A program made the translations under genes and the position numbers. Positions 1 to 64,000 of a DNA stretch of 64,000 nucleotides are shown in pieces. The notes beneath the pieces were generated by a model. It did no database searches. It saw only the letters and a program-made list of their open reading frames with translations, and was not told the DNA's origin. Position 1 is the stretch's first letter. The number at the start of each line of letters is the position of its first letter. The DNA is from Patescibacteria group bacterium (lineage in GTDB: Bacteria > Patescibacteriota > Patescibacteriia > UBA10025 > JAHIVO01), in NCBI GenBank assembly GCA_041660605.1, contig JBAZWB010000001.1, positions 393,295 to 457,294 of the forward strand, written 5' to 3'.

Positions 1-3
1 GCT

Positions 4-189
4 TTGCTGGGGTTTATTGAAGGCGCGCTGGTGCTGGGCACAATATTATTCGTTATCAGCCATTTCCAGATTTCTCCGGAACTGAATAACGCCATTGATA
101 ATTCCGCCTTCGCCGGTCTTTTAATTACCCTGGCGAAAGTCGTTACGCCGCTGGTGCCGAATGTGCTGAAGGTGGATGTTGTAATCTAG
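4..189 (+). CDS. C-terminal fragment of a membrane protein; the gene starts upstream of the window
   Basis: ORF open to the window edge; hydrophobic TM-like sequence. Confidence 0.3.
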   Translation: MLGFIEGALVLGTILFVISHFQISPELNNAIDNSAFAGLLITLAKVVTPLVPNVLKVDVVI

Positions 190-286
190 TGACTAGTGGC
201 TAGTAACTAGTTCCTAGCAATAAAAAATTTAAAAAATTAGACATTTATTAGAAATTGGATATTAGTAATTAGAAATTAAAAAAAAT

Positions 287-1120
287 ATGTCCCTAAATTT
301 AATAGATACCCACGCGCATCTGGATTTTGAGGAATTTTCTGAAGACCGCGAAGAAGTAATAAAAAGAGCTTTTGCCGTGGGAGTGAATAAAATAATAAAT
401 ATCGGGTGCGATGAAATTCATTTCAAATCCACACTGGAAATCGCTTCCGGACAGGATAATATTTACGCGGTGATCGGCCTGCATCCCCATGAAGCCATGA
501 CTTTCAGCCGCGATCAAAAAGAGCAGAATGAAGAGCTGAAGCGCGTTATTAAGAGGCTGGACGATTTTACCGGTTATAAGAAACTGGTGGGCATCGGCGA
601 GATTGGCCTGGATTTTTTCCATATTGCCAGGGAAAAAGAGCGTGAACAATCCTCCATATATAATCTGCAAAAAAATCTTTTCGTGGCGCAGCTGGAGTTT
701 GCCCTGAAAGCCAATCTGCCCATTGTCATACATTGCCGTGAGGCTTATGATGAGGTACTGGAAATTTTGAAAAAATATTCTGCCAATAAGAATTTGCGGG
801 GGGTGATACATTCTTTTGAGGGCAGTTTTGATGTTGCCAGCGAGTTCATCAAACTGGGCTTTTTAGTTTCTTTCAACGGCATGTTAACCTATGAAAAATC
901 AGACGAGCAGCTATCAGCCGCCAGCCGGCTGCCAATTGATAAGATTTTACTGGAAACTGATTGCCCCTATCTGACGCCCGTACCGCTGCGCGGCCAGCGC
1001 AATGAGCCGTCTTATATTGAGTACACCGCCAAAAAGCTGGCAGAATTAAGGAATACGACTATCGAGGAAGTGGCTGAACAGACAACCGCTAATGCCGTTA
1101 ATTTTTTTAAATTATCATAA
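287..1120 (+). CDS. tatD: TatD-family metal-dependent hydrolase (DNase)
   Basis: N-terminal IDTHAHLD HxH motif and TIM-barrel TatD pattern over 277 aa. Confidence 0.85.
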   Translation: MSLNLIDTHAHLDFEEFSEDREEVIKRAFAVGVNKIINIGCDEIHFKSTLEIASGQDNIYAVIGLHPHEAMTFSRDQKEQNEELKRVIKRLDDFTGYKKLVGIGEIGLDFFHIAREKEREQSSIYNLQKNLFVAQLEFALKANLPIVIHCREAYDEVLEILKKYSANKNLRGVIHSFEGSFDVASEFIKLGFLVSFNGMLTYEKSDEQLSAASRLPIDKILLETDCPYLTPVPLRGQRNEPSYIEYTAKKLAELRNTTIEEVAEQTTANAVNFFKLS

Positions 1121-1123
1121 ATA

Positions 1124-1960
1124 ATGATAGATACGCACGCGCATTTGAATTTTTCATCATTCAAAGATGATCTTGATGAAGTCATGCAGGAAATAATGCG
1201 TCTGAAGATGCGCGTGATCAACGTCGGCTCGCAGTTTTCTACCAGCCAGCGGGCGGTGGAACTGGCGGATAAATATCCGGCCAATCTTTTCGCGGCCATC
1301 GGCTTGCACCCGATTCATTTATTTGAAATGGAGTTTGATGAACTGGAAATGCCGTTTAAAACCAGACGCGAAGAATTCCATGCTGAGAATTATGAAAAAC
1401 TTAGCCAGCACAAAAATGTCGTGGCTATCGGCGAGATCGGCATTGATTATTTCAAACAACCGAGTAATGTCACAATAAAAGAATTCAAGGACAAGCAGAA
1501 ATGGACTTTCCTGAAGCAGCTGCAGCTGGCCAAGAAATTAAATTTACCGTATATCCTCCATTGCCGGGGGAGCAAGGAGGCGTTTGAGGATGCCTATAAG
1601 GATGCTCTAGCGGTGATCAGAGATTTCAAATATTTCCATGGCGTGGTCCACTGTTTTGCGGCAAACTGGGAAATTGCCAGGAAATTCCTGGATTTGGGCT
1701 TATTGATTTCCTTTACCGGCATTATTACTTTTCCGAAAACTGAATTTCTGGGGCAGGTAGTAAAAAAAATCCCGCTGGATCGGGTGATGGCAGAAACCGA
1801 CGCGCCTTTTCTGGCACCGCAGCTGGTGCGCGGCAAAAGAAATGAACCGCGCTACGTCCGTTATATCATAGATAAAATCGCCGATCTTAAGAGGATTACC
1901 TACGAGGAAGCGGAGGAGGCGACGACAAAAAATGCCGAAAGTTTTTTTAATCTGCACTAA
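1124..1960 (+). CDS. Second TatD-family hydrolase, tandem paralog
   Basis: MIDTHAHLNF motif and TatD-like conserved His/Glu/Asp positions; sits 3 nt after the first tatD. Confidence 0.8.
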   Translation: MIDTHAHLNFSSFKDDLDEVMQEIMRLKMRVINVGSQFSTSQRAVELADKYPANLFAAIGLHPIHLFEMEFDELEMPFKTRREEFHAENYEKLSQHKNVVAIGEIGIDYFKQPSNVTIKEFKDKQKWTFLKQLQLAKKLNLPYILHCRGSKEAFEDAYKDALAVIRDFKYFHGVVHCFAANWEIARKFLDLGLLISFTGIITFPKTEFLGQVVKKIPLDRVMAETDAPFLAPQLVRGKRNEPRYVRYIIDKIADLKRITYEEAEEATTKNAESFFNLH

Positions 1961-2007
1961 CGCCTGTTGAATTGTTAATAATCATTTTTTGAGATACAAT
2001 TAACCAT

Positions 2008-6812: not shown

Positions 6813-7001
6813 GTTGCAGAAGATTCATTCTTCTGTGTCAGGGCCGCCATCAGGCGCATGACCCCATCCATCATAAGAATCTTCCGAATCTCCTCCGGGT
6901 GTTTTCGGTCCAATGTACATCAGTGCCTCCAAAAAGCATTGTTAGTTTTTCCAAAATCGCTATTACGCGACAGGGGGAGTGTTTTTATGAGTGAGAAACA
7001 G

Positions 7002-7307
7002 TCAGCTTAGCAGGACGCCGAAGTAATCAATTGCTATGAAGAATGCAGTGCCGGCCGCGGCCATGCAGACTATGCCAGCCAAATACATCCTGCGCCTAAG
7101 CTGTACTCCGTATTGGTCATCTAAAGTCCCGAGTTCCTCAGCTTTGTAGTAGAGTCTATCGTGATAATTAAGTGAGAAAAACCCAACCAAGAAAAAAATA
7201 ATGGCTGGAATAATTTTGGTTGTCAATGCGACCTCCTTGCATTTCCAATAAAGTTCTATTTTTATTGGGCAATCATACCCCCATTTACAGAGCAGGTCAA
7301 CAAGCAT
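7002..7307 (-). CDS. Hypothetical small membrane protein
   Basis: ORF with two hydrophobic segments, divergent from atpZ. Confidence 0.3.
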   Translation of the reverse strand: MLVDLLCKWGYDCPIKIELYWKCKEVALTTKIIPAIIFFLVGFFSLNYHDRLYYKAEELGTLDDQYGVQLRRRMYLAGIVCMAAAGTAFFIAIDYFGVLLS

Positions 7308-7445: not shown

Positions 7446-7784
7446 TTGGCCACTTTAACAACTGCCAGTAAGCACTTTTTTAATTGTTTTATGGATAATA
7501 AACCTCAAATACCATGGTGGCAGCCGGCAGTAACGATTTTTGCCGAGGTAACCGGCTGGATTGCCGTACCAATATTAATTGCGTTGTTTTTGGGTAAATA
7601 TCTGGATGAGAAGTACGGCACTGATCCCTGGTATTATCTGGGGCTGACGGCAGTTGCCTTTATTATTTCCAGCACCGGAATTGTCATTGTGGCAGGCAAA
7701 TACATCAGGCAGATAGAAAAGGAAAATAAGAATAAGAAAAATGAATCAGACAGCAAACAATATCATAACAATACAAAATTCTAG
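7446..7784 (+). CDS. atpZ: ATP synthase protein I (AtpZ/AtpI family), small membrane protein
   Basis: Sits immediately upstream of atpB; two TM helices; W/P-rich N-terminus typical of ATPase_gene1 family. Confidence 0.6.
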   Translation: MATLTTASKHFFNCFMDNKPQIPWWQPAVTIFAEVTGWIAVPILIALFLGKYLDEKYGTDPWYYLGLTAVAFIISSTGIVIVAGKYIRQIEKENKNKKNESDSKQYHNNTKF

Positions 7785-8652
7785 CGTTGGCGGGCACCAG
7801 TTGCTCGCGGTGGAAACAACCGGTGAGGAGAAGGCGGCAACCAACTCGGAAATTTCCCATGAACCGACGCTTTATGCGGAACCGGTTTTTTCCATAGGCA
7901 GCTTCCAGGTGACAAATTCTCTGCTAAATTCCTGGGTAGTGGTGGTGTTGCTGGTAATTTTTTCACTGGTCCTGAGAAAAAAAATAAAACGCATCCCGCG
8001 CGGCCTACAGAACGCGGTGGAAATAGTTATTGAAGGCGCGCTGAATATGGTTGATAGCGTGACTAGTGACCGAAAAAAATCTCAGAAAGTTTTCCCCTTT
8101 GTTTTCGCAATTTTTGTCTTTATCTTGTTGAATAACTGGCTGGGATTGATCCCGGGTATTGGTTCGATCGGTTTTCTAGAATCAGAAGCCGGGCACCAGG
8201 TTTTTATACCATTACTTCGTGGCGGTACGGCTGATTTAAACACTACGCTGGCGCTGGCGATATTCGCTGTTATTAGTTCAAATATCTTTGGCATTTTGAT
8301 GGTCGGTGTCTGGAAGCATTTCAATAAATTCGTGAATCTCAAAGCCCTGGTGCAGATCCCCCAGCGGATTACCAAAGAACCAGCAATAGTCATAGTCAAT
8401 CCCATTAAATTTTTCGTTGGGATAATTGAAATCATCGGGGAAATCGCCAAAGTCGCTTCACTGTCTTTCCGGTTGTTCGGCAACATCTTCGCCGGCGAGG
8501 TCTTGCTGGCCTCTATGGCAGCGCTCTTCGCCTTTGTCCTGCCTGTGCCTTTCATGTTTTTGGAGGTAATCGTCGGACTGATACAGGCGCTGATTTTCGC
8601 CATGCTGACGCTGGTTTATTATACGATCGCCTCAACGGCGGAGGAACATTAA
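7741..8652 (+). CDS. atpB: F0F1 ATP synthase subunit a
   Basis: NNWLGLIPG and FRLFGNIFAGEVLL signature motifs; true start uncertain because the ORF overlaps the atpZ end. Confidence 0.9.
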   Translation: MNQTANNIITIQNSSVGGHQLLAVETTGEEKAATNSEISHEPTLYAEPVFSIGSFQVTNSLLNSWVVVVLLVIFSLVLRKKIKRIPRGLQNAVEIVIEGALNMVDSVTSDRKKSQKVFPFVFAIFVFILLNNWLGLIPGIGSIGFLESEAGHQVFIPLLRGGTADLNTTLALAIFAVISSNIFGILMVGVWKHFNKFVNLKALVQIPQRITKEPAIVIVNPIKFFVGIIEIIGEIAKVASLSFRLFGNIFAGEVLLASMAALFAFVLPVPFMFLEVIVGLIQALIFAMLTLVYYTIASTAEEH

Positions 8653-8732
8653 AGGTTTGTAGGTTGTGGGTAGTAAGTTGTAGGTAGTAATCTTATTAAT
8701 AAATAATTAACGGTTCAAGATTGCCGACTTAA

Positions 8733-9002
<270 letters not shown>

Positions 9003-9014
9003 TCTATTTACGTT

Positions 9015-9043
9015 CAGAAGATTCTGCTTCGGCAGATCTTCTG
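9015..9043 (+). promoter_or_regulatory. Stable UUCG-tetraloop hairpin immediately after atpE (intra-operon attenuator or processing stem)
   Basis: cagaagattctg-cttcgg-cagatcttctg, 12-bp stem with a TTCG loop. Confidence 0.45.
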
Positions 9044-9240
9044 GGGCTGGTAGATTATTATGCGTATTGGAATGCACATTGTATAGATAAAATTCGAAAT
9101 TTTAAATCCGAAATCCGAAACAAATTCAAATGTTTTAAATTTAAAATAATAAAGCCTTCGGTTGAATTTAAACATTTATTTTTAGAAATTTAATATTGTT
9201 TCGAGTTTCGTGCTTCGGATTTAGAATTTATTAATAATTT

Positions 9241-9738
9241 ATGGATGAATTAGTAAAAACATTTCACATTGACTGGAAGCTTTTAGTCGCTCAATTAATT
9301 AATTTTGGCATTGTCATAGGCGTGCTCTGGTATTTTGCCCTGAAGCCGCTCTTGAAAACCATGAACAAAAGAAGCGGAGACATTGAAAAGAGCCTGAAAG
9401 ACGCAGAAGAGATTGAAAAGAAATTGCTGCAAGCGGATAAAAGCAAAGATCGGATTGTCATCGAAGCAAAAAAAGAAGCGCAGATTATCCTGGAAAAATC
9501 CTATAAAGAGGCAGAAAAACTTAAGGAGCAGAAACTGCATGAAACCCGCAGCGAGATGGAAAAGATCGCCAATAAAGCCAAGGCGGATTTGCTGATGGAA
9601 AAAGATAAAATGATTGAACAAGCCAGGCATGAGGTCGGCGGTTTGATTATTACAGCCAGCGAAAAAATAATCGGCAAAAGCGTGGATACGGAAATCAATA
9701 AAAAAATAATTGAAGAAACCCTTAATCAGGCTAAATAA
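9241..9738 (+). CDS. atpF: F0F1 ATP synthase subunit b
   Basis: N-terminal TM then a long charged coiled coil; position in the operon. Confidence 0.85.
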   Translation: MDELVKTFHIDWKLLVAQLINFGIVIGVLWYFALKPLLKTMNKRSGDIEKSLKDAEEIEKKLLQADKSKDRIVIEAKKEAQIILEKSYKEAEKLKEQKLHETRSEMEKIANKAKADLLMEKDKMIEQARHEVGGLIITASEKIIGKSVDTEINKKIIEETLNQAK

Positions 9739-9744
9739 ATAATA

Positions 9745-10143
9745 ATGAGCAAGATTTCTCCAAAAAAATACGCCGTCAGCTTATATGAGGCCATAAAGGC
9801 AGTCCCAAAAGAAAAAACGGGTGCTATGCTTGGAAATTTCATAAAACTCCTGGCGAAAAATAATGATTTATCCCAGGCGGATAAAATAATCAGGGCTTAT
9901 AATGAATACGCGAATTTAAGCGAAAATGTCCTGGAGCTTTCAATCATTTCCGTGGAGAAAATAGATGAGAATTTAAAAAATAATATCGTCAGTCATTTAG
10001 GCAAAACCTTCAATAAAAAAATTGAACTGCATGAAAAAATTGACAAATCTTTAATCGGCGGAGCAGTGCTGAAATACGGCGATACAGTGGTGGACGGCAG
10101 CATTAAGAAAAGACTGGCTACGCTGAAACAAACATTAAAATAA
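9745..10143 (+). CDS. atpH: F0F1 ATP synthase subunit delta (OSCP), short form
   Basis: Operon position between b and alpha; OSCP-like C-terminal pattern (GGAVLKYGDTVVDGSIK). Confidence 0.75.
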   Translation: MSKISPKKYAVSLYEAIKAVPKEKTGAMLGNFIKLLAKNNDLSQADKIIRAYNEYANLSENVLELSIISVEKIDENLKNNIVSHLGKTFNKKIELHEKIDKSLIGGAVLKYGDTVVDGSIKKRLATLKQTLK

Positions 10144-10168
10144 TTAACATAATTATCTATAAAAGAAT

Positions 10169-11701
10169 ATGTCCAATAAAGACTACATCATTGAACAGCT
10201 AAAAAAGCAGATTACCGATTTTAAAACAGCCACGGTCAAGGAGAAGGTGGGTACGGTTGAATCAATCGGTGACGGCATTGCCAGGATTTCCGGCTTGTCA
10301 GAAGCCATGGCCTCGGAAATGTTAGAATTTCCGGGAAATAAATTCGGCGTGGCTCTGAACCTGGACGAGGATTCCGTCGGCGCGATTATTCTGGGCAGCC
10401 AGGAAGGCATCAAAGAAGGGGATACGGTTAAAAGCACCGGCAGGATATTGGAAGTGCCGGTCGGCGAATCCCTGATCGGCCGGGTGGTAAATCCGCTGGG
10501 AGAGCCGATGGACGGCAAAGGCGAGATTAAAACCAAGACCTTCTATCCCGTAGAAAAAATCGCTCCGCGCGTCATTACCCGCGAATCCGTCGATACGCCT
10601 CTGCAGACCGGCATTAAAGCTATTGATTCCATGATCCCTATCGGCCGCGGACAGCGCGAATTGATCATCGGCGATCGCCAGACCGGGAAAACTGCTATTA
10701 CCATTGACGCCATCATAAATCAAAAAGGCAAAAATGTGACCTGTATTTACGTCGCGATCGGTCAGAAAGAATCAAAGATCGCCAAGATTGTCACCGAGCT
10801 GGAAAAATTCGGCGCTATGGACCACACGATTGTTGTCATTGCCGGCGCTTCTGATCCGGCTTCTCTGGCATTTATCGCACCATACGCCGGCTGCGCTATG
10901 GGAGAATATTTTGTGGACAAAGGCCAGGATGTGCTGGTAATTTATGACGATTTATCCAAACACGCCTGGGCATACCGGGAAATTTCCTTGTTACTGCGCC
11001 GACCGCCGGGCCGTGAAGCTTATCCTGGAGACGTTTTTTACCTGCACTCACGCTTGCTGGAACGGGCTGCCAAGCTGAATAAAAAATACGGCGGCGGGTC
11101 ATTAACTGCTTTGCCGATTATTGAAACCCAGGCCGGTGATATTTCCGCTTACATTCCCACCAACGTTATTTCCATTACTGACGGGCAGATTTACCTGGAG
11201 CCGGATTTATTTTACCAGGGGATCAGGCCAGCCTTGAATATCGGATTGTCAGTTTCCCGCGTGGGTTCAGATGCGCAGATAAAAGCCATGAAAAAAGTGG
11301 CCGGTAAATTGCGTCTAGATCTGGCTCAGTACCGCGAATTAGCCGCTTTTGCCCAGTTCGGCTCTGACCTGGATGAAGCGACACGCCAGCAGCTGGAACG
11401 TGGCAAGCGCCTGACGGAAATTCTGAAACAGGCGCAGTTTGAGCCGATGCCGGTGGAAAATCAGGTAGTAGTTCTATATGCCGCAGTCAACGGATTTTTG
11501 GATGACGTGCCGGTTGATAAAATCAAGAAATTTGAAACTGAATTGCATCAGCGCCTGAAAACATCGCATCAAGATTTACTTGACCTTATTCTGAAAGAGA
11601 AAGAAATAACTGAAGCCGTTGAAAAGAAATTAAAACAAGTCATTGAAGATTTTAAAAAAACTACGGATTATGTGGTGAAGGAAGAAGCAAGTAATAAGTA
11701 A
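10169..11701 (+). CDS. atpA: F0F1 ATP synthase subunit alpha
   Basis: GDRQTGKT Walker A; highly conserved alpha-subunit sequence. Confidence 0.95.
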
Positions 11702-11811
11702 TTGGTAATTAATGCTATTTAATATGCTCCGAGTGCACCTCTCTGTGGGTGCGCTCAAATCCAAAGAACGTGAGGATAATTAAGAATATATAATCCGATA
11801 AAAAACAAACG

Positions 11812-12735
11812 ATGCCCCTGGCAACCAGAGAAATTAAAAGAAGAATTAGTTCCGTCGTCAGCACCAAGAAAATAACCAAGGCGATGGAGCTGGTGGCGGC
11901 TGCGAAAATGCGCAAAGCCGTTAATGCTGTTATGGCGACCCGCGCTTACTCTGCTTCAGCCTGGGAAATCGTAAAAAATTTGTCTGCCAAGACCGATCCG
12001 GCACAGCATCCGCTCCTGCAGAAACGCGCGAAAATAAAGAATGTCGGGCTGATTTTAATAACTTCAAACAGAGGCTTGTGCGGCAGTTTTAACCGCGAAG
12101 TCGTCGATACGGTAGCAGAATACGTCAGGAACCACAAAAAACAGCAGGTTGACATAGAAGCGGAAGTTTTCCTGATGGGCCAGCGCGGACGCGATATCAT
12201 GTATAAGCATGGTCATGAGATTGTAGCTGAATTCACCAAGCTGGACGTGGCTACCAGGATTTCCGAAGTTTCCCCTTTGGCGAAAATGGTTATCGCGGAT
12301 TTTGTTTCCGGAAAATACGATAAAGTGTCCGTGGCCTACACCGATTACCGTTCTGCCATTTCCCAGACGCCGCGCGTCAGGAAACTGCTGCCCATCGATC
12401 GTGAAGACACGGAATTAGGCTATGTGACCGGTGAATTGGCCAAAGAAGCTAAGTCCCAAGTGCAAAATCAGATTGATTATGAATATTTGTTTGAGCCTTC
12501 AGCCGATGAAGTGCTGGAGCAGATGATGTATCGCTTGATTGAACTGCAGATCTACCAGGCCTTGCTGGAGTCAAACGCTTCGGAGCATTCCGCCCGTATG
12601 ATGGCCATGCGCAACGCTTCGGATTCGGCCAGCGATATGATAGACGATCTGACGCTGACATTTAACCGCGCACGGCAGCAGACTATCACCTCGGAATTAG
12701 CCGACATCAGCGCTGGTACGGCCGCTGTTACTTAG
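11812..12735 (+). CDS. atpG: F0F1 ATP synthase subunit gamma
   Basis: Conserved gamma N- and C-terminal helices (ITSELADISAGTAA). Confidence 0.9.
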   Translation: MPLATREIKRRISSVVSTKKITKAMELVAAAKMRKAVNAVMATRAYSASAWEIVKNLSAKTDPAQHPLLQKRAKIKNVGLILITSNRGLCGSFNREVVDTVAEYVRNHKKQQVDIEAEVFLMGQRGRDIMYKHGHEIVAEFTKLDVATRISEVSPLAKMVIADFVSGKYDKVSVAYTDYRSAISQTPRVRKLLPIDREDTELGYVTGELAKEAKSQVQNQIDYEYLFEPSADEVLEQMMYRLIELQIYQALLESNASEHSARMMAMRNASDSASDMIDDLTLTFNRARQQTITSELADISAGTAAVT

Positions 12736-12788
12736 TGCAAGCTAAAATTAATTAAAATCAACTTTTACAGAAAAATTATTCATTATAA

Positions 12789-14198
<1,410 letters not shown>

Positions 14199-14242
14199 AA
14201 GGTAGTAAGTTGTAAGTAGCTATTAGAAATAAAAAAGATAAA

Positions 14243-14689
14243 ATGGCCAATAAAATAAATTTCGAAATTACCACGCCGGAAAGGGTTGTTTTTTCCGACC
14301 AGGTTGACGAGGTGGTTCTGCCGACGATGCAGGGAGAGATCGGCATTCTGCCGAATCATATCCCCCTGGTTTCTTTGCTGTCCGCCGGCGAGATCAGGAT
14401 TAAGAAAGGCAAGGAAGAATTTTTTATGGCTGTTTCCGGCGGGTTCATAGAAGTGCGGCCCGATAAGGTGGTGGTCCTGGCGGATACAGCCGAGAGAGCC
14501 GAGGAAATTGACGAGAAGCGGGCCGAGGAAGCGCGGCAGCGCGCTCAGGCGCTGGCTCATGAGAAACGCACTGATGCCAGGGAATTCGCCGCCATCACCG
14601 CCAAGATGGAAAAAGAACTAGCCAGGCTCAAAGTGGCCACCCGGCGCCGGCGCCGGAAAGAACCGCCGCTCCGGCCGCAGTCAGAATAA
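14243..14689 (+). CDS. atpC: F0F1 ATP synthase subunit epsilon with an Arg-rich C-terminal tail
   Basis: Epsilon beta-sandwich plus helical hairpin; tail RRRRRKEPPLRPQSE. Confidence 0.85.
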   Translation: MANKINFEITTPERVVFSDQVDEVVLPTMQGEIGILPNHIPLVSLLSAGEIRIKKGKEEFFMAVSGGFIEVRPDKVVVLADTAERAEEIDEKRAEEARQRAQALAHEKRTDAREFAAITAKMEKELARLKVATRRRRRKEPPLRPQSE

Positions 14690-15133: not shown

Positions 15134-15240
15134 TAAAAATTTATTTTCCTCCTTCGTCCCGCCAAGGCGGGACTACGGAGGATTCTCCTCATTTTGTATC
15201 CCCGCGATAATCGCGGGGTATATAGGCGGAGGAGAATCAA
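15134..15240 (+). ncRNA. Structured noncoding element (nested GC-rich hairpins) downstream of the atp operon
   Basis: cccgccaaggcggga hairpin; outer stem ggaggattctcctc/ggaggagaatc enclosing the ccccgcgat-aat-cgcgggg hairpin. Confidence 0.35.
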
Positions 15241-15242
15241 AA

Positions 15243-15270
15243 AGACCCGCTATAAAGCGGGCCTTTTTAA
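15243..15270. terminator. Bidirectional intrinsic terminator between the atp-operon side and the convergent RRM gene
   Basis: gacccgc-tataaa-gcgggcc hairpin flanked by A/T runs on both strands. Confidence 0.6.
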
Positions 15271-15287
15271 GTTTATGTAAAGATAAA

Positions 15288-15581
15288 CTAGAAGTTTCTT
15301 GAACCGCCGAAATTGCCGCGCGGTGGCCTTTCTTTCATTGGCCGAGCTTCATTGACGATGATTGAGCGGCCTTCGAAATCCTTGCCATTGAGAGTATCAA
15401 TAGCAGTTTTGGCCTCTTCATCCGTGCTCATTTCCACAAAGCCGAAACCTTTTGACCGTCCGGATACCCTGTCAATGATGACATTGGCGGATTCCACTGT
15501 GCCGGCCTGAGAAAAGAAATCTCTCAGCTGGTCGTCGGTAACACTATAGGATAGGCTTCCTACGAATAATTTCTTTGCCAT
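15288..15581 (-). CDS. RRM-type RNA-binding protein (RNP-1 and RNP-2 motifs) with a Gly/Arg-rich tail
   Basis: LFVGSL (RNP-2) and KGFGFVEM (RNP-1). Confidence 0.9.
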   Translation of the reverse strand: MAKKLFVGSLSYSVTDDQLRDFFSQAGTVESANVIIDRVSGRSKGFGFVEMSTDEEAKTAIDTLNGKDFEGRSIIVNEARPMKERPPRGNFGGSRNF

Positions 15582-16141
15582 TTTTTTTCGCTTGATTTTA
15601 ATGGTTAATTATCGCTATCGTTTTAGGAAGACCTTTTTCATCCCCCGACTTAACTTTTCGTAAGAGGCGGGAGCGTCCTCTAATGTTACCATTAGATAAG
15701 TCCTAAAAAGAATAACAGTTTGATACTATCAAAGGAGGCCTCTTTTGTCAATATAGGCCGTATTTATAGAATAAAAAAGCGCGGAACCCTTCAAACAAGC
15801 TCCGCGCCAATCAGTCACAATTGACCGATAATCACTCCTTTCGCTAAGGCAGAGAGCAAACAAGTGAATAGCGACGCCGGCTGCTGATATTTACCATTCT
15901 GTTTTCATTTACGGGTAACTGACTTCAGAGAAAGGAAGACCATAATGAATAGAGTCGTTACACTATGCTAACAGCCGACGAGTAAATTTTAGCACTATTG
16001 GGCGGACAGGTGAAGGGGAGTAATATTGGGAAATCGTTATGCACAGTTGACCGTTTTAGAGCTACAATCTATACTTAATATGTAAATAGAAGCCTTCCCC
16101 AAAGTATTTTTGGTGAAGGTGTTTTTAATGTAAATTCAATG

Positions 16142-16182
16142 TTTGACTACATCAGGTACTAGTATTAGGGTTAAAGTATAAG
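16142..16182 (+). repeat. Copy 1 of a ~40-bp shared upstream element (TTGACT...GGTACTAGTATTAGGGTTAAAGTAT)
   Basis: About 90 percent identical to the copy at 17191-17232; lies upstream of the 16346 gene. Confidence 0.6.
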
Positions 16183-16345
16183 ATTAATAAATTAAAAACA
16201 ACTATGGAAAACCAACCAAACCGGTAAATAAGACCAGGTGGATAGTGTTTGTAATGAAATAACTTATCCGCATATTCATCGATTAATAAAGTGTTTATTT
16301 GGTACAATGAAATTAACAAGTTATTGTTAAACAATCAACCCTGAT

Positions 16346-17056
16346 ATGGTGATTCATCCACAAAGTAATAGATCGCTAACAGCCCCATTTCTAGTGATAG
16401 TTTGTACTTTTAGTTTCACCGCAATTCTTGTTGTTTGTATCTTTATATACTTGATGTTTTATCAGGATTGCATCGACAACCCCCAAGAAAAATCGATACA
16501 GGTATTTACTGAGGTTCCTAAATACAGTATTGAAAATTTTAAATGGGCAACAATACAATATAATACCGGCAAGGATTATGCGATTGAATTAAAGGTTCCA
16601 AAACATTGGGACGCAGAAGTGTCGCAACAAGCTTTAAGTGAGCGCGACAATCTACTATTTGCTCAGGGTGCCGTAAGTCATCCAGATATTCACGCTTCCG
16701 TACAAGTTCGCTACTATCATAATTCTGAATCTTTTGAAAATTGGATATCAAAGCATAAGCTAGAGTACGAGTTACCACAGTGGGCAGGAACTCAATTTAT
16801 TGAGGAGGATATTGTGTATAATAATGTAAAATACAAAAAGTTTAGCCCTGAGGGGAGAAATTATGGATTTTTTTTCATTCCAAAGAATGACGGTGTGTAT
16901 CAGATTGAATTTGGCGTTGGAGGCTGGTCTGATTTTACGAATGTTGAAATAAGTCAAGAAGCATTCCCTTCTTCTTATGAGATCGTACCGAGGGTACTAG
17001 GTTCTTTACGCTTCGTTCCTGCTAGTGTGGGTAATAATGATGATTCAGAATGGTAG
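16346..17056 (+). CDS. Hypothetical protein with an N-terminal TM anchor
   Basis: 236-aa ORF with a signal-anchor TM then a globular domain; the TAG stop is followed by about 46 in-frame protein-like codons. Confidence 0.5.
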   Translation: MVIHPQSNRSLTAPFLVIVCTFSFTAILVVCIFIYLMFYQDCIDNPQEKSIQVFTEVPKYSIENFKWATIQYNTGKDYAIELKVPKHWDAEVSQQALSERDNLLFAQGAVSHPDIHASVQVRYYHNSESFENWISKHKLEYELPQWAGTQFIEEDIVYNNVKYKKFSPEGRNYGFFFIPKNDGVYQIEFGVGGWSDFTNVEISQEAFPSSYEIVPRVLGSLRFVPASVGNNDDSEW

Positions 17057-46945: not shown

Positions 46946-46971
46946 GTGCACTAAATGAAATAGGAATTCCG

Positions 46972-47019: not shown

Positions 47020-47047
47020 TTGACAGGCGGGAAGGAAAGTGATAATA
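47020..47047 (+). promoter_or_regulatory. Sigma70-like promoter (TTGACA ... GATAAT)
   Basis: Hexamers upstream of the 47081 gene. Confidence 0.45.
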
Positions 47048-47080
47048 TTTTATGAAATATACGTTAGTTAGGAGGGTTGT

Positions 47081-47377: not shown

Positions 47378-47393
47378 GATCTCTCTATGCTGC

Positions 47394-47426
47394 ACGGCTG
47401 CCCTTGCCAGGCGGCCTTTTTTTATT
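47394..47426 (+). terminator. Intrinsic terminator
   Basis: ggctgcc-cttgcca-ggcggcc hairpin followed by tttttttattt. Confidence 0.6.
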
Positions 47427-47435: not shown

Positions 47436-47464
47436 TTGACTAAATACGTAAAAAGTAATATACT
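47436..47464 (+). promoter_or_regulatory. Sigma70-like promoter (TTGACT, 17-nt spacer, TATACT)
   Basis: Hexamers upstream of the 47519 gene. Confidence 0.5.
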
Positions 47465-47518
47465 TCGTTAATATTTGTTGGTTTTGTCCTTTGTCATTAA
47501 AAAAAAGTAGGAGGTCAG

Positions 47519-48034
47519 TTGCGAAACAGCTTTACTATGCCAAGTGAGCACCATCATGTACGTCTCGCGGCATCGTTTGCTGCCATCTTCTTTGCCATCG
47601 GATGGGTACCGGTTGAGTTAATAGTTCCGTTTTTAGTGAAATTGTTCCAGCTTCGCGGACTTGTTTTTATCGCCTTGTCATTGCATAAGGCGATTTATGT
47701 GGTTGGATTCATACTTTCGCTAAATACGCTTCTCAACCATGCCAGCGGCAGGCGTTATCTTGAAAAACGCAAGTTTGGTCGATTTCTTCTGAAACTCTTG
47801 GGGCACAAAAACTCCGGACGTTTACACGGCTGGCGGCTAGTGGTTTATGAGATTTGGTATCACGCGGGTTTAGCGGTCTTCGGATTTTTTCCAATTTTTG
47901 TAAAATTTGCTATTGCACGCTGCTCCCTGTATCCCCGGTTTTCCGCGATTTCATGCGTGGTGACAGCTACTACCCTCGGTTCTTATCTGATTGTCTATTA
48001 TGGCGTTGATGTACTCAATTGGTTCATCGGTTAA
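47519..48034 (+). CDS. Hypothetical polytopic membrane protein (TTG start, SD aggaggtca) with a His-rich N-terminus
   Basis: 171 aa with 4-5 TM helices; the MPSEHHHVRL N-terminus is reminiscent of membrane-bound metal-hydrolase families (weak). Confidence 0.4.
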   Translation: MRNSFTMPSEHHHVRLAASFAAIFFAIGWVPVELIVPFLVKLFQLRGLVFIALSLHKAIYVVGFILSLNTLLNHASGRRYLEKRKFGRFLLKLLGHKNSGRLHGWRLVVYEIWYHAGLAVFGFFPIFVKFAIARCSLYPRFSAISCVVTATTLGSYLIVYYGVDVLNWFIG

Positions 48035-48066
48035 ACCGCAGGCATTTTCTAAGTGCAGGCGGTTTT

Positions 48067-49446
48067 TTATTTATCCAGTTTTCCTGCTAAACCCCAGGCG
48101 CTGGCTTTTTCTATTTTTACGTTTATAAACTGGCCAATGAGGTCCTGCGTACTTATTACCTCAACGGTTTTAAAACCCTCGGTTTTGCCGTGAAAAACGT
48201 TCTTACCGCGGCCGCGCTTGTCAATCAGCACTTTCTGCGTGGTGCCGATTAATTTCTTGTTATTTTCCAGTGCAGTTTTCGCCAGAATGTCGTTTAATAT
48301 TTTTTCGCGCTCCATTTTGGTTTTTTTCGGCACATCGTCGGGAAAAAAGCGCGCGGCCGCGGTGCCCAGGCGGGGAGAGTATTGCGCCAGGTAGGCCATG
48401 TCGTATTTTACGGTTTTCATCAGCTCTGCCGTTTGCTGGAATTGCTCATTTGTTTCACCGGGAAAACCGACGATGACGTCAGTGGTGATAGCTACCCCTG
48501 GCCAGGCAGCGCGCAGGCGTTTTATCAGATCTAGATAATACCGGCGGTTATGGCGACGGTTCATACGCCGCAATATTTCATCATCACCCGATTGGATCGG
48601 CAAATGAAAAAACCGGGTCATTTTTTCGCACTGCGGCAAAGTCTTTAAAAGCTCCTCTGAAACATCCTGCGGATTGGAGGTCAGAAATCGTATCCAGAAA
48701 TTACCAGGCAGGCTGTTTATTTTAATTAATAATTCAGAAAAATCCTTGGGCACTTTAGTAGTGGCTGTGCGCCATTGGATTGCCTGGCCTTTCTTAAAAC
48801 GCCAGTAATCCCGCGAGCGAGATTCCAGAATATCCTTGTCGTGGTTTTTTTCCGGATCAATATAAGCATTGACGTTCTGGCCCAGCAAGGTAATTTCCTT
48901 GTACCCTTGGTTTATCAGGTTTTTTACTTCGTTAATAATATCCGAAGAGGGGCGTGAAGCCTCCTGTCCGCGGGTATATGGCACGGCGCAGTAGGTGCAA
49001 TAATTATTGCAGCCGGTCATGATAGGAATAAAAGCCTGAAAGGGGGAGCTATGCAGAGCATCCAAAGACAGGTAATCAGCATTAGTTATTGTTTCTTTGG
49101 TTTTGAGCTTTTTATCCAGCCCAAGTAGTTGGGGAAATCCGGCAATATCTTTAATCTCCAAAAAAATGTCAAAATCTTTCTGTAATTTAATTCTGTCTGC
49201 GGGTAGTACACAGCCGGTTAGAATCAATTTAAGAGGGCGTTCTTTTTTCCAAAGGCGCCATTTTTCTATGCTGCCAAAAATTCTGTCCATGGCTTTCTGC
49301 CTGACTGAGCAGGAAACGACGATTATCAGGTCTGCTTGATTTTCATTTTGAGTGGCCTCACAATCATGGGATTGCAAAATGCTGGCCAGACGTTCAGCAT
49401 CTGACCAGTTCATCTGGCAGCCAATGGTAAATAAGTAATATTTCAT
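48067..49446 (-). CDS. miaB: tRNA-2-methylthio-N6-dimethylallyladenosine synthase (radical-SAM methylthiotransferase with TRAM domain)
   Basis: N-terminal MTTase Cys motif (IGCQMN), radical-SAM CNNYCTYC, C-terminal TRAM; start placed at MKYYLFTIGCQMN. Confidence 0.85.
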   Translation of the reverse strand: MKYYLFTIGCQMNWSDAERLASILQSHDCEATQNENQADLIIVVSCSVRQKAMDRIFGSIEKWRLWKKERPLKLILTGCVLPADRIKLQKDFDIFLEIKDIAGFPQLLGLDKKLKTKETITNADYLSLDALHSSPFQAFIPIMTGCNNYCTYCAVPYTRGQEASRPSSDIINEVKNLINQGYKEITLLGQNVNAYIDPEKNHDKDILESRSRDYWRFKKGQAIQWRTATTKVPKDFSELLIKINSLPGNFWIRFLTSNPQDVSEELLKTLPQCEKMTRFFHLPIQSGDDEILRRMNRRHNRRYYLDLIKRLRAAWPGVAITTDVIVGFPGETNEQFQQTAELMKTVKYDMAYLAQYSPRLGTAAARFFPDDVPKKTKMEREKILNDILAKTALENNKKLIGTTQKVLIDKRGRGKNVFHGKTEGFKTVEVISTQDLIGQFINVKIEKASAWGLAGKLDK

Positions 49447-62273: not shown

Positions 62274-62301
62274 AAAATTTCCGTTTTTTTCAAAAACAAA
62301 A

Positions 62302-63468
62302 ATGAAAAAGAAAAACGATAATTCAAGGCTTTTATATTCTCCAAGAACCGACAGACAGCAGGAATGGCTGTGGTTTTTAGGCATTTTTTTAGCAGCCGTG
62401 TTTTTTTCCTGGTGGTACGGAATTATGCTGGGCCAGAGCCAATGGAAGCTTTTTGATTTTTACCTAAATGGTACTGGGCGCAGTGCGGTAGTGGTAGGAC
62501 AGAGTACGGATACGACAGATAGTACGGCTGACAATACAGTCGTACAGCCTGTATCTAGCCCATACCGTTTGCTTGACGGGCTGAACGTCGGTGCCGATAA
62601 AGCGCATTTTTGGCCCTATGCCGTAATGATAGAAAATTTGCTGACTGTCAGACCGCAAAGCGGACTGTCACAGGCTTCAGTTGTTTATGAAGCATTGGCC
62701 GAGGGCGGATCAACCAGGTTTATGGCGGTTTTTGATCCTTCTGAAAAAATACCGGAATTAATGCCGGTCAGGTCAGCCAGGCCATACTATCTGGAGTGGG
62801 CTTCGGAATACGGAGTATTATACGCTCACGCGGGCGGCAGCCCGAAGGCCCTGACCGTTATCAGGGAAATCCCGGATTTTCATGATTTAGACGCTCTTTC
62901 CTCAAATTCAAAATATTTTTGGCGTGATACCAGTAAAGCCGCTCCGCATAATTTAGTAACGTCGTCTGATAAGATGAATTTCGCCCTGCGCGATAAGGGT
63001 CTGCTGGATAAGCTGGCCGATTTCAGCACCTGGATATTTAAAGACGAAGCGGCGCTGGCAGATCGGGGTGACGACGGCAAGAAAGTTACTTTTAATTTTT
63101 CTTCCGGCCTGACCTACAAAGTAGAGTTTGTTTATAATCAAGCGGAGAACGTTTATCTGCGATTTAACGCCGGTCAGCCGCATCTGGATAAAAATACCAA
63201 TCAGCAAATTAAGGTTAAAAATGTTATTGTCCAGTTGACTCCAGAACCGGAACTGGACGGCGGCAAAGGGCGGCTGGATATCTATGTTGGCGGAGAAGGC
63301 AAGGCCTGGGTGTTCCGTGACGGGCAGGCCATAGAAGCAGTCTGGAAAAAAGCCACGCGGACAGACCGCACCAGATTTTATGATCTGAATGGCCAGGAAA
63401 TACAGCTAGACCGCGGGAATACCTGGATCCACGTGATTTCCAAAACACAGGAAGTTACCTATCAATAA
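62302..63468 (+). CDS. DUF3048-like protein, tandem paralog
   Basis: The same conserved blocks (YAVMIEN...RPQSGLSQASVVYEALAEGGSTRFMAVF...PVRSARPYY); start moved to MKKKN. Confidence 0.45.
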   Translation: MKKKNDNSRLLYSPRTDRQQEWLWFLGIFLAAVFFSWWYGIMLGQSQWKLFDFYLNGTGRSAVVVGQSTDTTDSTADNTVVQPVSSPYRLLDGLNVGADKAHFWPYAVMIENLLTVRPQSGLSQASVVYEALAEGGSTRFMAVFDPSEKIPELMPVRSARPYYLEWASEYGVLYAHAGGSPKALTVIREIPDFHDLDALSSNSKYFWRDTSKAAPHNLVTSSDKMNFALRDKGLLDKLADFSTWIFKDEAALADRGDDGKKVTFNFSSGLTYKVEFVYNQAENVYLRFNAGQPHLDKNTNQQIKVKNVIVQLTPEPELDGGKGRLDIYVGGEGKAWVFRDGQAIEAVWKKATRTDRTRFYDLNGQEIQLDRGNTWIHVISKTQEVTYQ

Positions 63469-63609
63469 TTATTATAATAAAATAAGCCGGCGGTGTGAGA
63501 AGATCAGACCGACGAGTTTTGGATTTCAGGAATTAGTTTGAGGCAGGCTATTGATGAAAATGGATCTGGCTCCTGGTTGGATGCCTGAATTTGTATTTGA
63601 GCCAAAATA

Positions 63610-63645
63610 AAAATGTGGCTGTCTGTAATCTCTTCACAGACAGCC
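63610..63645 (-). terminator. Intrinsic terminator for the minus-strand gene ending at 63655
   Basis: gtggctgtctgt-gaagagattac-agacagccac hairpin; on the minus strand it is followed by atttttatttt. Confidence 0.7.
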
Positions 63646-63654
63646 ACCAGAAAG

Positions 63655-63936
63655 TCAGCAAGGTACTTTTTCGTCATTTGTGACGAGGTCTTCATCGGTC
63701 GAACTCCCCAATAACGGTGGACTATTAATCTCCTTTTTCACTAGTCGACCTCCTTCAATCACATAAACAGTGCCTTTGCGAGCCTCCTCGATGTAGAATG
63801 ACTTCAGGTTTGCCAAAGGCACTGATTCCTCTGTGCGTTCATCTCCGTAGAAAACCACGCTGAGAACAGCACCAGTCAGCGAGATGCTAGTTACCAAACC
63901 GCTTATCCATCCGGTTGGTAAGATCTGGCAGCGCAT
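63655..63936 (-). CDS. Hypothetical protein
   Basis: 93-aa ORF with a strong downstream terminator. Confidence 0.4.
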   Translation of the reverse strand: MRCQILPTGWISGLVTSISLTGAVLSVVFYGDERTEESVPLANLKSFYIEEARKGTVYVIEGGRLVKKEINSPPLLGSSTDEDLVTNDEKVPC

Positions 63937-64000
63937 GAGAAAAAGTCCATCTTCGTCTGATGCCTGAAAATCGGGAATTATGGAACCTCCATTGCCAAGC

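What the first reader, a model, noticed from the sequence alone, without database searches (positions are those of the whole stretch)
1..64000. SD-less core genes versus GGAGG-bearing accessory genes
Housekeeping genes (atp operon, gyrB, pheS, dnaE, tatD and others) have A/T-rich upstream regions with no Shine-Dalgarno sequence. Every gene in the two GC-richer cassettes has a canonical GGAGG 6-9 nt before its start: 17399, 19689, 20219, 44874, 46595, 47081 and 47519. This is a compositional and translational signature of foreign origin for these cassettes.
Basis: seen in the sequence. Interest (0 to 1): 0.55.

Follow-up and report, generated by a model that had tools for sequence, protein, structure and literature searches.

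The report
SD-led accessory genes, SD-less core
In this small symbiotic-type (Patescibacteria/CPR) bacterium almost all genes start translation without the classical ribosome-binding (Shine-Dalgarno) site, but a small set of stand-alone accessory genes carries a perfect one, and their relatives in other such bacteria keep it too, so it looks like a working second translation channel, not just a scar of foreign DNA.

Summary
The window is a Patescibacteria (CPR) MAG related to Ca. Kerfeldbacteria. Forty-nine core genes have A-rich, G-depleted leaders and no SD (anti-SD duplex dG no lower than -5.6). All seven listed genes have GGAGG 3-7 nt before the start (dG -9.3 to -12.1). I found two more SD-led small ORFs on the minus strand (starts 7226 and 6920).

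Each SD gene is a monocistronic unit: TTGACA-type promoter, SD, ORF, terminator. SD genes have distinct synonymous codon usage (p=6e-6).

The "GC-richer" claim fails. Regional GC is 0.44-0.46 against 0.443 for the window, and GC3 is lower in SD genes (0.43 vs 0.50).

"Foreign origin" is only partly supported. Cassette 1 sits in a variable slot that is empty in one relative. However, the closest homologues lie in other SD-poor genomes (named Patescibacteria for the M23 family; unnamed, CPR-like contigs for the 216-aa family) and are themselves SD-led: 5/5 for the M23 family and 11/11 for the 216-aa DUF218-like family. The 216-aa family's GC3 tracks host GC3 (r=0.90). The SD therefore seems maintained by selection.

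The decisive 16S anti-SD could not be read. Verdict: a new variant of a known kind, of moderate interest.

The parts
17399..19477 (+). SD-led gene: secreted M23 peptidase with FG-GAP/VCBS repeats and a Por_Secre_tail C-terminal domain (692 aa). SD GGAGG at 17387-17391, embedded in a 7-bp hairpin at 17376-17395. Terminator at 19500-19531.
   Evidence: Pfam. SD dG -12.1. Terminator and hairpin. 100% identical to an NCBI Patescibacteria protein on a 960-kb contig.
19587..20104 (+). Monocistronic unit: promoter TTGACA-16-TATACT (19587-19614), SD 19681-19685, ORF 19689-20042 (117 aa, N-terminal TM segment), terminator 20075-20104.
20160..20543 (+). Monocistronic unit: promoter TTGACA-17-TACACT (20160-20188), SD 20210-20214, ORF 20219-20509 (96 aa, Cys-rich zinc-ribbon-like), hairpin plus T-run at 20494-20543.
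44788..45571 (+). Monocistronic unit: promoter TTGACA-17-TACTCT (44788-44816), SD 44863-44867, TTG start at 44874, ORF to 45524 (216 aa, DUF218/YdcF-like fold), terminator about 45538-45571.
   Evidence: Family alignment A1 supports the TTG start. AF2 pLDDT 93. DUF218 fold hit with E=1.3e-4.
46523..47006 (+). Monocistronic unit: promoter TTGACA-17-TAATAT with TG (46523-46551), SD 46584-46588, ORF 46595-46945 (116 aa), terminator about 46971-47006.
   Evidence: One homologue cluster at 59% identity.
47020..47423 (+). Monocistronic unit: promoter TTGACA-17-TAATAT with TG (47020-47048), SD 47071-47075, ORF 47081-47377 (98 aa), terminator 47396-47423.
47436..48068 (+). Monocistronic unit: promoter TTGACT-17-TATACT (47436-47464), SD 47510-47514, TTG start at 47519, ORF to 48034 (171 aa, multi-TM, strict ORFan), terminator about 48036-48068.
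7002..7300 (-).
   Evidence: Synonymous codon LLR -0.020.
6825..6930 (-). Coding status uncertain.
15134..21042 (.). Variable slot between the Pro_CA_2 gene (14702-15133) and the UvrD/PcrA-type helicase (21043-24042). It is 5.9 kb here, 0.4 kb and empty in L005, 0.8 kb in L003, 3.3 kb in L019 and 5.0 kb in L002. The cargo differs in each genome and includes SD-led ORFs.
   Evidence: tblastn synteny. Slot contents.
16346..17056 (+). SD-less but codon-atypical ORF in cassette 1 (236 aa, no Pfam, GC3 0.32). It shares a 25-nt upstream repeat with the M23 gene.
7446..14689 (+). Example of core genes with SD-less, A/T-rich leaders: the F-type ATP synthase operon.
   Evidence: Pfam. Upstream sequences and dG.
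24993..34087 (+). Further SD-less core genes: pheS, pheT, gyrB, secE, nusG, rplK and rplA.
   Evidence: Pfam. Upstream sequences.

Best explanation
The organism is an SD-poor Patescibacterium with two co-existing modes of translation initiation.

Mode 1 covers core genes, including operon-internal ones. These use A-rich, G-depleted, weakly structured leaders and ATG starts, so initiation is SD-independent.

Mode 2 covers a minority class of stand-alone, mostly lineage-specific genes. Examples are a secreted M23 peptidase, a DUF218-like protein and small membrane or unknown proteins. Each is a self-contained module: a near-consensus sigma-70 promoter, a short leader with (A)AGGAGG 4-7 nt before the start (often TTG or GTG), an ORF and an intrinsic terminator.

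The inference is that this motif pairs with a canonical CCUCCUU tail of the 16S rRNA and recruits the 30S subunit.

These modules occupy variable slots of the chromosome and have unadapted codon usage, so they belong to the accessory or flexible genome. Their SD is nevertheless conserved among orthologues in other SD-poor genomes. It therefore appears to be kept by selection as their working initiation signal, and is not a decaying relic of a recent import.

Shown: the motifs, their spacing, the module architecture, the codon-usage split, the slot variability and SD conservation across orthologues.
Inferred: pairing with an intact anti-SD, and the selective reason.
For: - The dG distribution is bimodal with no overlap: 9 genes at -9.3 to -12.1, against 49 core genes at -5.6 or higher. 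The random expectation for reaching -9.5 is 1%.
- The core start-region (translation-initiation) profile is A-rich and G-depleted.
- Promoter/SD/terminator modules are seen for each SD gene.
- Synonymous codon LLR is -0.086 to +0.016 for SD genes and 0.019 to 0.159 for 54 of the 56 SD-less genes (two exceptions below; MWU p=6e-6). Core genes prefer GCC/GGC/ACC/CTG/TGC, whereas SD genes show flat usage.
- M23 family: 5/5 members are SD-led among SD-less neighbours.
- 216-aa family: 11/11 orthologues at 36-52% identity are SD-led, including TTG/GTG starts, among SD-less neighbours such as parAB, topA, dprA, mfd and dnaX.
- The 216-aa family's GC3 tracks host GC3 (r=0.90, p=0.001).
- The consensus from 38 sites is AAGGAGG, with a spacer mode of 5-6 nt.
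- ACP and HU are SD-led in related genomes.
- Across 37 loci, SD-led ORFs are codon-atypical. Median LLR is -0.011 against 0.108 for SD-less conserved ORFs (p=6e-8), and against 0.074 for SD-less non-conserved ORFs (p=3e-4). They are also less conserved (25% vs 44%, p=0.005).
Against: - About half of Parcubacteria are reported to lack the anti-SD motif (PMC9297842), although mainly the uL1-lacking group, and this genome has uL1.
- Only 64 kb of a roughly 1-Mb genome was seen.
- The GC3 correlation rests on 9 partly related data points.
- Persistent codon atypicality fits ongoing horizontal movement as well as weak selection.
- The taxonomic identity of several metagenome contigs carrying orthologues was not verified.
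- Two codon-atypical genes (C25 peptidase and ORF 16346) lack an SD, so the two signals are not perfectly coupled.
Confidence: 0.55

Rival explanations
1. The cassettes are recent horizontal imports from SD-using donors. The GGAGG is a passive leftover of the donor's expression signals and has no role, or is not needed, in this host.
For: - Atypical codon usage.
- Insertion in variable slots relative to close relatives.
- ORFan or patchy distribution.
- Complete 'portable' promoter-SD-terminator modules.
- The M23 protein carries a Por_Secre_tail domain typical of T9SS-bearing phyla.
Against: - The closest homologues lie in other SD-poor genomes (the M23 hits are named Patescibacteria by NCBI), and all are SD-led.
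- Beyond those, only 27-33% identity repeat-level hits were found.
- GC3 of the 216-aa family has converged on each host, yet the SD is intact in 11/11.
- lexA-linked synteny of the M23 gene in L036 and L053 indicates vertical descent within a sub-lineage.
- The cassettes are not GC-richer.
- No integrase, tRNA or flanking direct repeats were found.
Confidence: 0.22
2. A Bacteroidia-like specialised-ribosome regulon. The anti-SD is normally masked on most ribosomes, and SD-led mRNAs are translated only by a ribosome sub-population or under particular conditions. This would give the accessory set a separate translational switch.
For: - Core start regions (A-rich, G-depleted) resemble those of Bacteroidia (PMC6847099).
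- In Flavobacterium johnsoniae a strong SD is retained on rpsU and read by bS21-less ribosomes (PMC9976891, PMC13000453).
- SD-led genes here form a discrete, conserved minority.
Against: - No ribosomal evidence is available: bS21, bS18, bS6 and the 16S rRNA are not in the window.
- Here roughly 10% of ORFs are SD-led (an upper bound), not one gene.
- SD-led ACP and HU in relatives suggest ordinary, constitutive SD use.
Confidence: 0.12
3. The GGAGG motif is not a ribosome-binding site. The ribosome has lost the anti-SD, as in some Parcubacteria, and the motif serves another role such as a protein- or RNA-binding or structural element.
For: - Anti-SD loss has been reported in a Parcubacteria subgroup (PMC9297842).
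- The M23 SD lies inside a hairpin.
Against: - The spacer is tightly distributed at 4-8 nt from the start codon.
- The extended consensus AAGGAGG is exactly complementary to CCUCCUU.
- It is associated with TTG/GTG starts.
- The position tracks the start codon in orthologues whose surrounding sequence has diverged.
- The genome encodes uL1, unlike the group reported to lack the anti-SD.
Confidence: 0.06
4. Assembly artefact: chimeric insertion of fragments from other organisms into the MAG contig.
For: The sequence is a metagenome-assembled genome, and the cassette genes are compositionally distinct.
Against: - Each cassette is flanked on both sides by syntenic core genes, and the boundaries fall in intergenic DNA.
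- The same pattern recurs in independent assemblies from NCBI, JGI, ENA and Logan.
- miaA is interleaved with cassette 2.
Confidence: 0.03

Closest known systems
Bacteroidia (e.g. Flavobacterium johnsoniae, Bacteroides) SD-independent initiation with an 'SD-blind' ribosome and SD-led rpsU
   Same: - Core genes lack an SD and have A-rich, G-poor leaders.
- A small minority of genes nevertheless keeps a strong SD. About 3% of B. ovatus genes have SD-like sites (PMC6028130), and rpsU does in Flavobacteriales (PMC9976891).
   Different: - The phylum is different (Patescibacteria).
- The SD-led set here is about 10% of ORFs. It consists mainly of monocistronic accessory genes with unadapted codons, not a ribosomal-protein autoregulatory gene.
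- Anti-SD masking by bS21/bS18/bS6 is untested here.
Parcubacteria subgroup lacking the 16S anti-SD motif (Tsurumaki et al. 2022, RNA; PMC9297842)
   Same: This is a CPR lineage in which the classical SD/anti-SD interaction is not the default.
   Different: - That report concerns the rRNA, mostly in uL1-lacking lineages.
- This genome encodes uL1 and keeps conserved, canonically spaced SDs on a gene subset. That argues for an intact anti-SD.
- mRNA-side usage and the core/accessory split were not described there.
GeneMarkS-2 'group B/X' genomes (non-SD or weak RBS) with 'atypical' (putatively transferred) genes (PMC6028130)
   Same: A genome-wide non-SD start context, plus a compositionally atypical gene fraction.
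   Different: Here the atypical fraction coincides with strong SD use, and the SD is conserved across orthologues. That link was not found in the passages of that paper examined.
Classical genomic islands / flexible-genome hotspots
   Same: - The slot between conserved genes has variable content among relatives.
- Codon usage is atypical and many genes are ORFans.
   Different: - There is no integrase, tRNA target, flanking repeats or phage genes.
- Units are single-gene modules interleaved with core genes.
- Base composition is not shifted at the regional level.

Membership tests
Canonical Shine-Dalgarno-led initiation (for the 9 cassette genes) | Purine-rich motif complementary to the 16S 3' tail (GGAGG core) | tested here: met
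   GGAGG is present at all 9 sites. Duplex dG with ACCUCCUUA is -9.3 to -12.1. The extended consensus is AAGGAGG.
Canonical Shine-Dalgarno-led initiation (for the 9 cassette genes) | Spacing of about 4-9 nt between the motif and the start codon | tested here: met
   Spacers are 3-7 nt in the window. The mode is 5-6 nt over 38 sites including orthologues.
Canonical Shine-Dalgarno-led initiation (for the 9 cassette genes) | Anti-SD (CCUCC) present and accessible at the 3' end of the organism's 16S rRNA | not testable with these tools
   There is no rRNA in the window or in any fetched locus.
Canonical Shine-Dalgarno-led initiation (for the 9 cassette genes) | Evolutionary conservation of the motif at orthologous starts | tested here: met
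   11/11 orthologues of the 216-aa family and 5/5 of the M23 family are SD-led.
SD-independent (Bacteroidia-type) initiation (for the core genes) | Absence of SD, with A-rich and G-depleted sequence upstream of starts, including operon-internal genes | tested here: met
   None of 49 core genes has dG at or below -6. A is 45-57% and G 4-16% at -13..-1.
SD-independent (Bacteroidia-type) initiation (for the core genes) | Anti-SD sequestered by bS21/bS18/bS6; SD-led rpsU autoregulation | not testable with these tools
   These genes and the 16S rRNA are outside the window, and no structure is available.
Horizontally acquired genomic island | Insertion relative to close relatives, at a conserved flanking site | tested here: met
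   The slot from the CA-like gene to the helicase is 5.9 kb here, 0.4 kb in L005 and 0.8 kb in L003. The rmuC-atp island is absent in L005. Cassette 2 was not testable because no relatives' loci were available.
Horizontally acquired genomic island | Atypical base composition or codon usage | tested here: inconclusive
   Synonymous codon usage is atypical (p=6e-6). Regional GC is not shifted. The 216-aa family's GC3 is ameliorated to its hosts.
Horizontally acquired genomic island | Mobility signatures (integrase, tRNA target, direct repeats) or an identifiable donor | tested here: not met
   No tRNA, no flanking repeats, no mobility domains and no viral relatives. The nearest homologues lie in other SD-poor genomes; the M23 ones are named Patescibacteria by NCBI.

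The most novel reading that the evidence does not exclude
SD-poor Patescibacteria keep a functional anti-SD specifically to serve a conserved minority of SD-led genes. These are portable, monocistronic accessory or envelope genes, plus a few genes such as ACP and HU in some lineages. The cell would then run two insulated translation-initiation channels. Accessory genes could be expressed, and possibly switched through ribosome heterogeneity as with bS21 in Bacteroidia, independently of the SD-less core. An SD upstream of a gene would also be a usable marker of flexible-genome genes across this radiation.
Probability: 0.3. Interest if true: 0.65.

Novelty: new variant of a known kind. Interest (0 to 1): 0.5.

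Why it matters
CPR/Patescibacteria make up a large share of bacterial diversity, are almost all uncultured, and have unusual ribosomes. How they choose start codons is essentially unstudied: only three library papers mention both SD and Patescibacteria, and none addresses this question.

A clean split between SD-less core genes and SD-led accessory genes, conserved across genomes, would matter in four ways.
1. It would show that the anti-SD is still in use in lineages that look SD-free.
2. It would improve start-site calling. NCBI starts for two of these genes skip the SD-supported TTG.
3. It would give a simple sequence marker for the flexible, possibly host-interaction, gene set.
4. It would offer a second, independent example beside Bacteroidia for studying why genomes abandon the SD yet retain it for a few genes.

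Tried and rejected
- Exact-protein look-ups of window genes (the window copy of the M23 protein, its identical database copy P0001, and AtpA) found no record, so the source contig could not be fetched.
- Rfam at gathering threshold found no RNA gene in the window. E-value mode on the ORF-free stretches 15100-17420 and 49480-50250 gave only terminator-like noise.
- A search for 16S motifs in the 52 loci held at that point found nothing, so the anti-SD stays unread.
- Viral-contig scans with the 216-aa family and the 171-aa ORFan found no relatives, so a prophage or phage origin is not supported.
- Repeat searches found no direct repeats bounding the cassettes. No tRNAs were found.
- Enrichment of signal-peptide or TM proteins among SD-led ORFs was not significant (32% vs 22%, p=0.07). 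The apparent enrichment of non-ATG starts in that call is biased by my start-picking rule, so I do not rely on it.
- 'SD marks highly expressed genes' is rejected for this window. The atp operon, L11, L1, NusG, SecE, the RRM protein and HPF are all SD-less.
- 'GC-richer cassettes' is rejected.

Full report
**What the window is**

A relative search with the UvrD/PcrA-type helicase (21043-24042) returned only Patescibacteria (CPR) MAGs as close matches. Identities were 67-72%, and the hits include the complete Ca. Kerfeldbacteria chromosome CP181398. The M23 protein at 17399-19477 is 100% identical to an NCBI 'Patescibacteria group bacterium' protein on a 960-kb contig. NCBI locus tags WCV50_01510 and WCV50_01530 belong to two of the cassette genes.

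- two tatD genes, rmuC and the complete F-ATPase operon;
- pheS, pheT and gyrB;
- secE, nusG, rplK and rplA;
- a thymidylate-metabolism cluster, gatB and carAB;
- hpf, miaA, miaB, maf, dnaE, ftsW and bL25 (thrS was recognised from its translation only).

No tRNA or Rfam family is present.

**Checking the observation**

All seven GGAGG sites exist. I scored the 20 nt upstream of each start for duplex formation with the canonical 16S tail ACCUCCUUA. The distribution is cleanly bimodal.
- 49 core genes range from -5.6 to +2.2 kcal/mol (median 0.2).
- The SD genes range from -9.3 to -12.1.
- Only 1.0% of random 20-mers from the window reach -9.5.

Core starts are preceded by A-rich, G-depleted sequence: A is 45-57% at -12..-2 and G is 4-16% at -13..-1. 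The upstream 30 nt has GC 0.23, against 0.44 for the window.

One is a 74-aa membrane protein (AAGGAGGT, TTG at 7226). The other is a 31-aa ORF (GGAGG, ATG at 6920).

Two parts of the description do not hold.
- The cassettes are not GC-richer. Their spans have GC 0.459 and 0.438, against 0.443 +/- 0.021 for 3-kb windows. GC3 of the SD genes is lower than core (0.43 vs 0.50, p=0.003).
- Not every gene in the cassettes has an SD. ORF 16346-17056, the RRM gene and the MazG gene in the same inserted segment lack one. The SD-less core gene miaA lies inside 'cassette 2' on the other strand.

**Anatomy**

Each SD gene is a self-contained monocistronic module.
- It begins with a near-consensus sigma-70 promoter, for example TTGACA-16-TATACT at 19587, TTGACA-17-TAATAT with an upstream TG at 46523 and 47020, and TTGACT-17-TATACT at 47436.
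- A leader of roughly 30-70 nt follows.
- GGAGG lies 3-7 nt before the start.
- The ORF is followed by a GC-stem/T-run terminator.

Three of the nine genes start with TTG. For 44874 the TTG start is supported by the N-terminal alignment of 16 homologues. NCBI had chosen downstream ATGs for this gene and for 47519.

**Composition**

I computed a purely synonymous codon log-likelihood, conditioned on amino acid and trained on core genes with leave-one-out.
- The nine SD genes score -0.086 to +0.016 per codon.
- Core genes score 0.019 to 0.159 (Mann-Whitney p=6e-6).
- Only two SD-less genes are similarly atypical: the C25 gingipain-like peptidase at 3147-5503 and ORF 16346-17056.

Core genes prefer GCC, GGC, ACC, CTG and TGC, whereas SD genes use synonymous codons almost evenly. 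The result is the same with or without the long M23 gene. Lysine is 8.8% in core proteins and 3.3% in SD-gene proteins.

**Are the cassettes insertions?**

For cassette 1, yes. Relatives keep the order atp operon, carbonic-anhydrase-like gene, helicase. The gap between the last two genes varies as follows:

| Genome | Gap length | Content |
|---|---|---|
| L005 | 0.4 kb | empty |
| L003 | 0.8 kb | one SD-led 143-aa ORF |
| L019 | 3.3 kb | one SD-led secreted 276-aa ORF plus others |
| L002 | 5.0 kb | several, two of them strongly SD-led |
| window | 5.9 kb | cassette 1 plus RRM and MazG genes |

The slot is therefore a hotspot whose cargo differs between genomes and includes at least one SD-led gene in every relative where it is occupied (L002, L003, L019) and in the window.

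The segment from rmuC to the atp operon (3073-7445) holds the C25 peptidase and the two minus-strand SD ORFs. It is absent from L005. Cassette 2 could not be compared because no relatives' loci were available.

No tRNA, integrase, bounding repeats or viral relatives were found.

**Where do the SD genes come from?**

*M23 family.* The only close homologues of the M23 protein (43-64% identity) are five proteins. NCBI names three of them (the identical copy plus two) as Patescibacteria; the other two carry no name. Everything else is a repeat-level hit at roughly 25-50% identity over short stretches.
- I fetched four of these contexts (the fifth is the window's own copy). Every one has AAAGGAG(G/A) or ACGGAGG 5-7 nt before the true start. 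In L035 the annotated GTG was wrong, and the SD-led ATG restores the signal peptide.
- Neighbours such as mraZ, rsmH, ftsI, murE, lexA, PFOR, ackA and eno are SD-less.
- In L036 and L053 the gene keeps lexA-linked synteny, which indicates vertical descent.

*216-aa family.* The 216-aa protein (44874) belongs to a small family of 16 database homologues with 22 invariant residues.
- AF2 predicts it confidently (pLDDT 93). Its fold matches DUF218/YdcF proteins (BFVD, E=1.3e-4, TM 0.58-0.67).
- Across 13 further loci from independent assemblies, all 11 orthologues at 36-52% identity carry a strong SD at the aligned start (dG -10.2 to -12.9). Starts include TTG and GTG. The two most distant members have weaker GAGG-type sites.
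- In the longer loci the family member and, at most, adjacent hypothetical ORFs carry an SD; in L042, L043 and L046 it is the only one. Recognisable core neighbours such as parAB, topA, dprA, mfd and dnaX are SD-less.
- Host GC of these loci spans 0.29-0.55, and the family's GC3 follows host GC3 (r=0.90, p=0.001, n=9).

Genes that have had time to converge on their host's base composition, but keep GGAGG at the right distance in every member, are keeping it by selection.

*Other SD genes.* The remaining SD genes are a strict ORFan (47519), a near-ORFan (46595, one cluster at 59% identity), or were not searched.

**Generality**

I analysed 37 loci: the Patescibacteria helicase-relative loci plus the contexts fetched for the two families, 595 ORFs in all.
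- About 10% of ORFs are SD-led. This is an upper bound, because I took the best site among nearby starts.
- SD-led ORFs are less often conserved across loci (25% vs 44%, p=0.005).
- They have much lower synonymous codon adaptation. Median LLR is -0.011, against 0.108 for SD-less conserved ORFs (p=6e-8) and 0.074 for SD-less non-conserved ORFs (p=3e-4).

The SD/codon-usage coupling is therefore a property of the clade, and it is not just a consequence of being non-conserved.

The SD-led set in relatives is mostly hypothetical proteins. It also includes ACP in three genomes and HU, both confirmed by Pfam. That argues these ribosomes do read SDs.

Aligning 38 reliable sites gives the consensus AAGGAGG (A is 82% and 71% at the two positions before GGAGG), with a spacer mode of 5-6 nt. 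This is the complement of a canonical CCUCCUU tail at canonical spacing.

**Mechanism proposed**

- Core mRNAs initiate without an SD. They rely on unstructured A/U-rich leaders and ATG. This resembles Bacteroidia and other low-SD lineages (PMC6847099, PMC6028130).
- The accessory modules instead recruit the 30S subunit through SD/anti-SD pairing. That tolerates GC-richer leaders (GC 0.38 vs 0.23) and non-ATG starts. It also makes each module expressible wherever it lands.
- Flat codon usage is consistent with weak translational selection, with continuing movement within the clade, or with both.

What is shown is the sequence architecture, its statistics and its conservation. The pairing itself, and the reason selection keeps it, are inferred.

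**Rivals**

- *Passive relic of recent import.* This explains the slot variability and codon usage. It does not explain the 16/16 SD conservation, the GC3 convergence, or the absence of any homologue set in an SD-using genome.
- *Bacteroidia-like masked anti-SD with specialised ribosomes* (PMC9976891, PMC13000453). This is an attractive variant but is untested here.
- *Non-SD role for GGAGG in a ribosome lacking the anti-SD* (PMC9297842). This is made unlikely by the spacing, the extended complementarity and the presence of uL1. It can only be excluded by reading the 16S rRNA.
- *Assembly chimerism.* This is very unlikely, because the cassettes are flanked by syntenic core genes and the pattern recurs in independent assemblies.

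**Comparison with what is known, and verdict**

SD-poor genomes and rare SD-retaining genes are known in Bacteroidia. Loss of the anti-SD motif has been reported for part of the Parcubacteria (PMC9297842). In the library searched I found no description of a conserved SD-led accessory gene class against an SD-less core in Patescibacteria.

I rate this as a new variant of a known kind, with moderate interest (0.5). The main limitation is the unread 16S tail, together with having only 64 kb of the genome.

Noticed in passing
window 3147-5503 (+): This is a gingipain-like Peptidase_C25 with propeptide (about 785 aa). It has atypical synonymous codon usage (-0.034) but no SD. It lies in a 4.4-kb segment (3073-7445) between rmuC and the atp operon that is absent from relative L005. 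Together with the M23/Por_Secre_tail protein, this is a second 'Bacteroidota-flavoured' secreted protease in a CPR genome.
   Followed up: partly
window 16155-16179 and 17204-17228: A 25-nt direct repeat, GGTACTAGTATTAGGGTTAAA(G/A)TAT (96% identical), preceded by TTTGACT. Each copy lies about 190 nt upstream of an ORF start (16346 and 17399). It may be a shared promoter or regulatory element giving long leaders.
   Followed up: no
window 17376-17395: The SD of the M23 gene lies in the 3' arm of a 7-bp hairpin (AATCCCT GAAAGG AGGGATT). The L053 orthologue has a similar TCCTC/GAGGA pairing. This may be an SD-sequestering translational control.
   Followed up: no
window 44874-45524 and alignment A1: The conserved 216-aa SD-led family has no Pfam hit but folds confidently (pLDDT 93). 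It matches the DUF218/YdcF fold (BFVD E=1.3e-4). Invariant motifs include QAFGRN, QWE.A.A, WP and AH. It may be envelope-related, like SanA/ElyC.
   Followed up: partly
window 44874 and 47519: NCBI annotation (WCV50_01530, 206 aa; WCV50_01510, 165 aa) starts both genes at downstream ATGs. The SD position and, for 44874, the homologue alignment support the upstream TTG starts.
   Followed up: yes
window 49680-50179: A 500-nt ORF-free stretch between a 49-aa ORF and the 3' end of thrS. It contains three GGAGG motifs (49875 and 49891 on the plus strand, 50136 on the minus strand) with no usable ORF. There is no Rfam match even at E<=1.
   Followed up: partly
window 26079-26438 (+): A stand-alone '23S rRNA intervening-sequence protein' (PF05635, bAvd-like) sits between pheS and pheT. 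Its GC3 is very low (0.23). A homologue also occurs in L036.
   Followed up: no
window 40085-44370 (+): carA/carB (carbamoyl-phosphate synthase) are present, which is uncommon for reduced CPR genomes. Their codon adaptation is lower than that of other core genes (0.026-0.028), and they have no SD.
   Followed up: no
L003 424, L021 5853, L023 9576; L018 14523 / L027 14508: In related Patescibacteria loci the acyl-carrier protein (three genomes) and HU carry strong SDs (AAAGGAGGTG type). So the SD-led class is not purely accessory in the wider clade.
   Followed up: partly
L038/L039 762-2146: A diversity-generating retroelement (RVT_1 reverse transcriptase plus bAvd) lies about 2 kb from a 1923-aa transglutaminase-like giant protein, which is itself adjacent to the 216-aa family member.
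   Followed up: no
window 287-1960 and 61197-63468: There are tandem paralogue pairs: two TatD DNases and two DUF3048 proteins. All are SD-less with typical codon usage.
   Followed up: no
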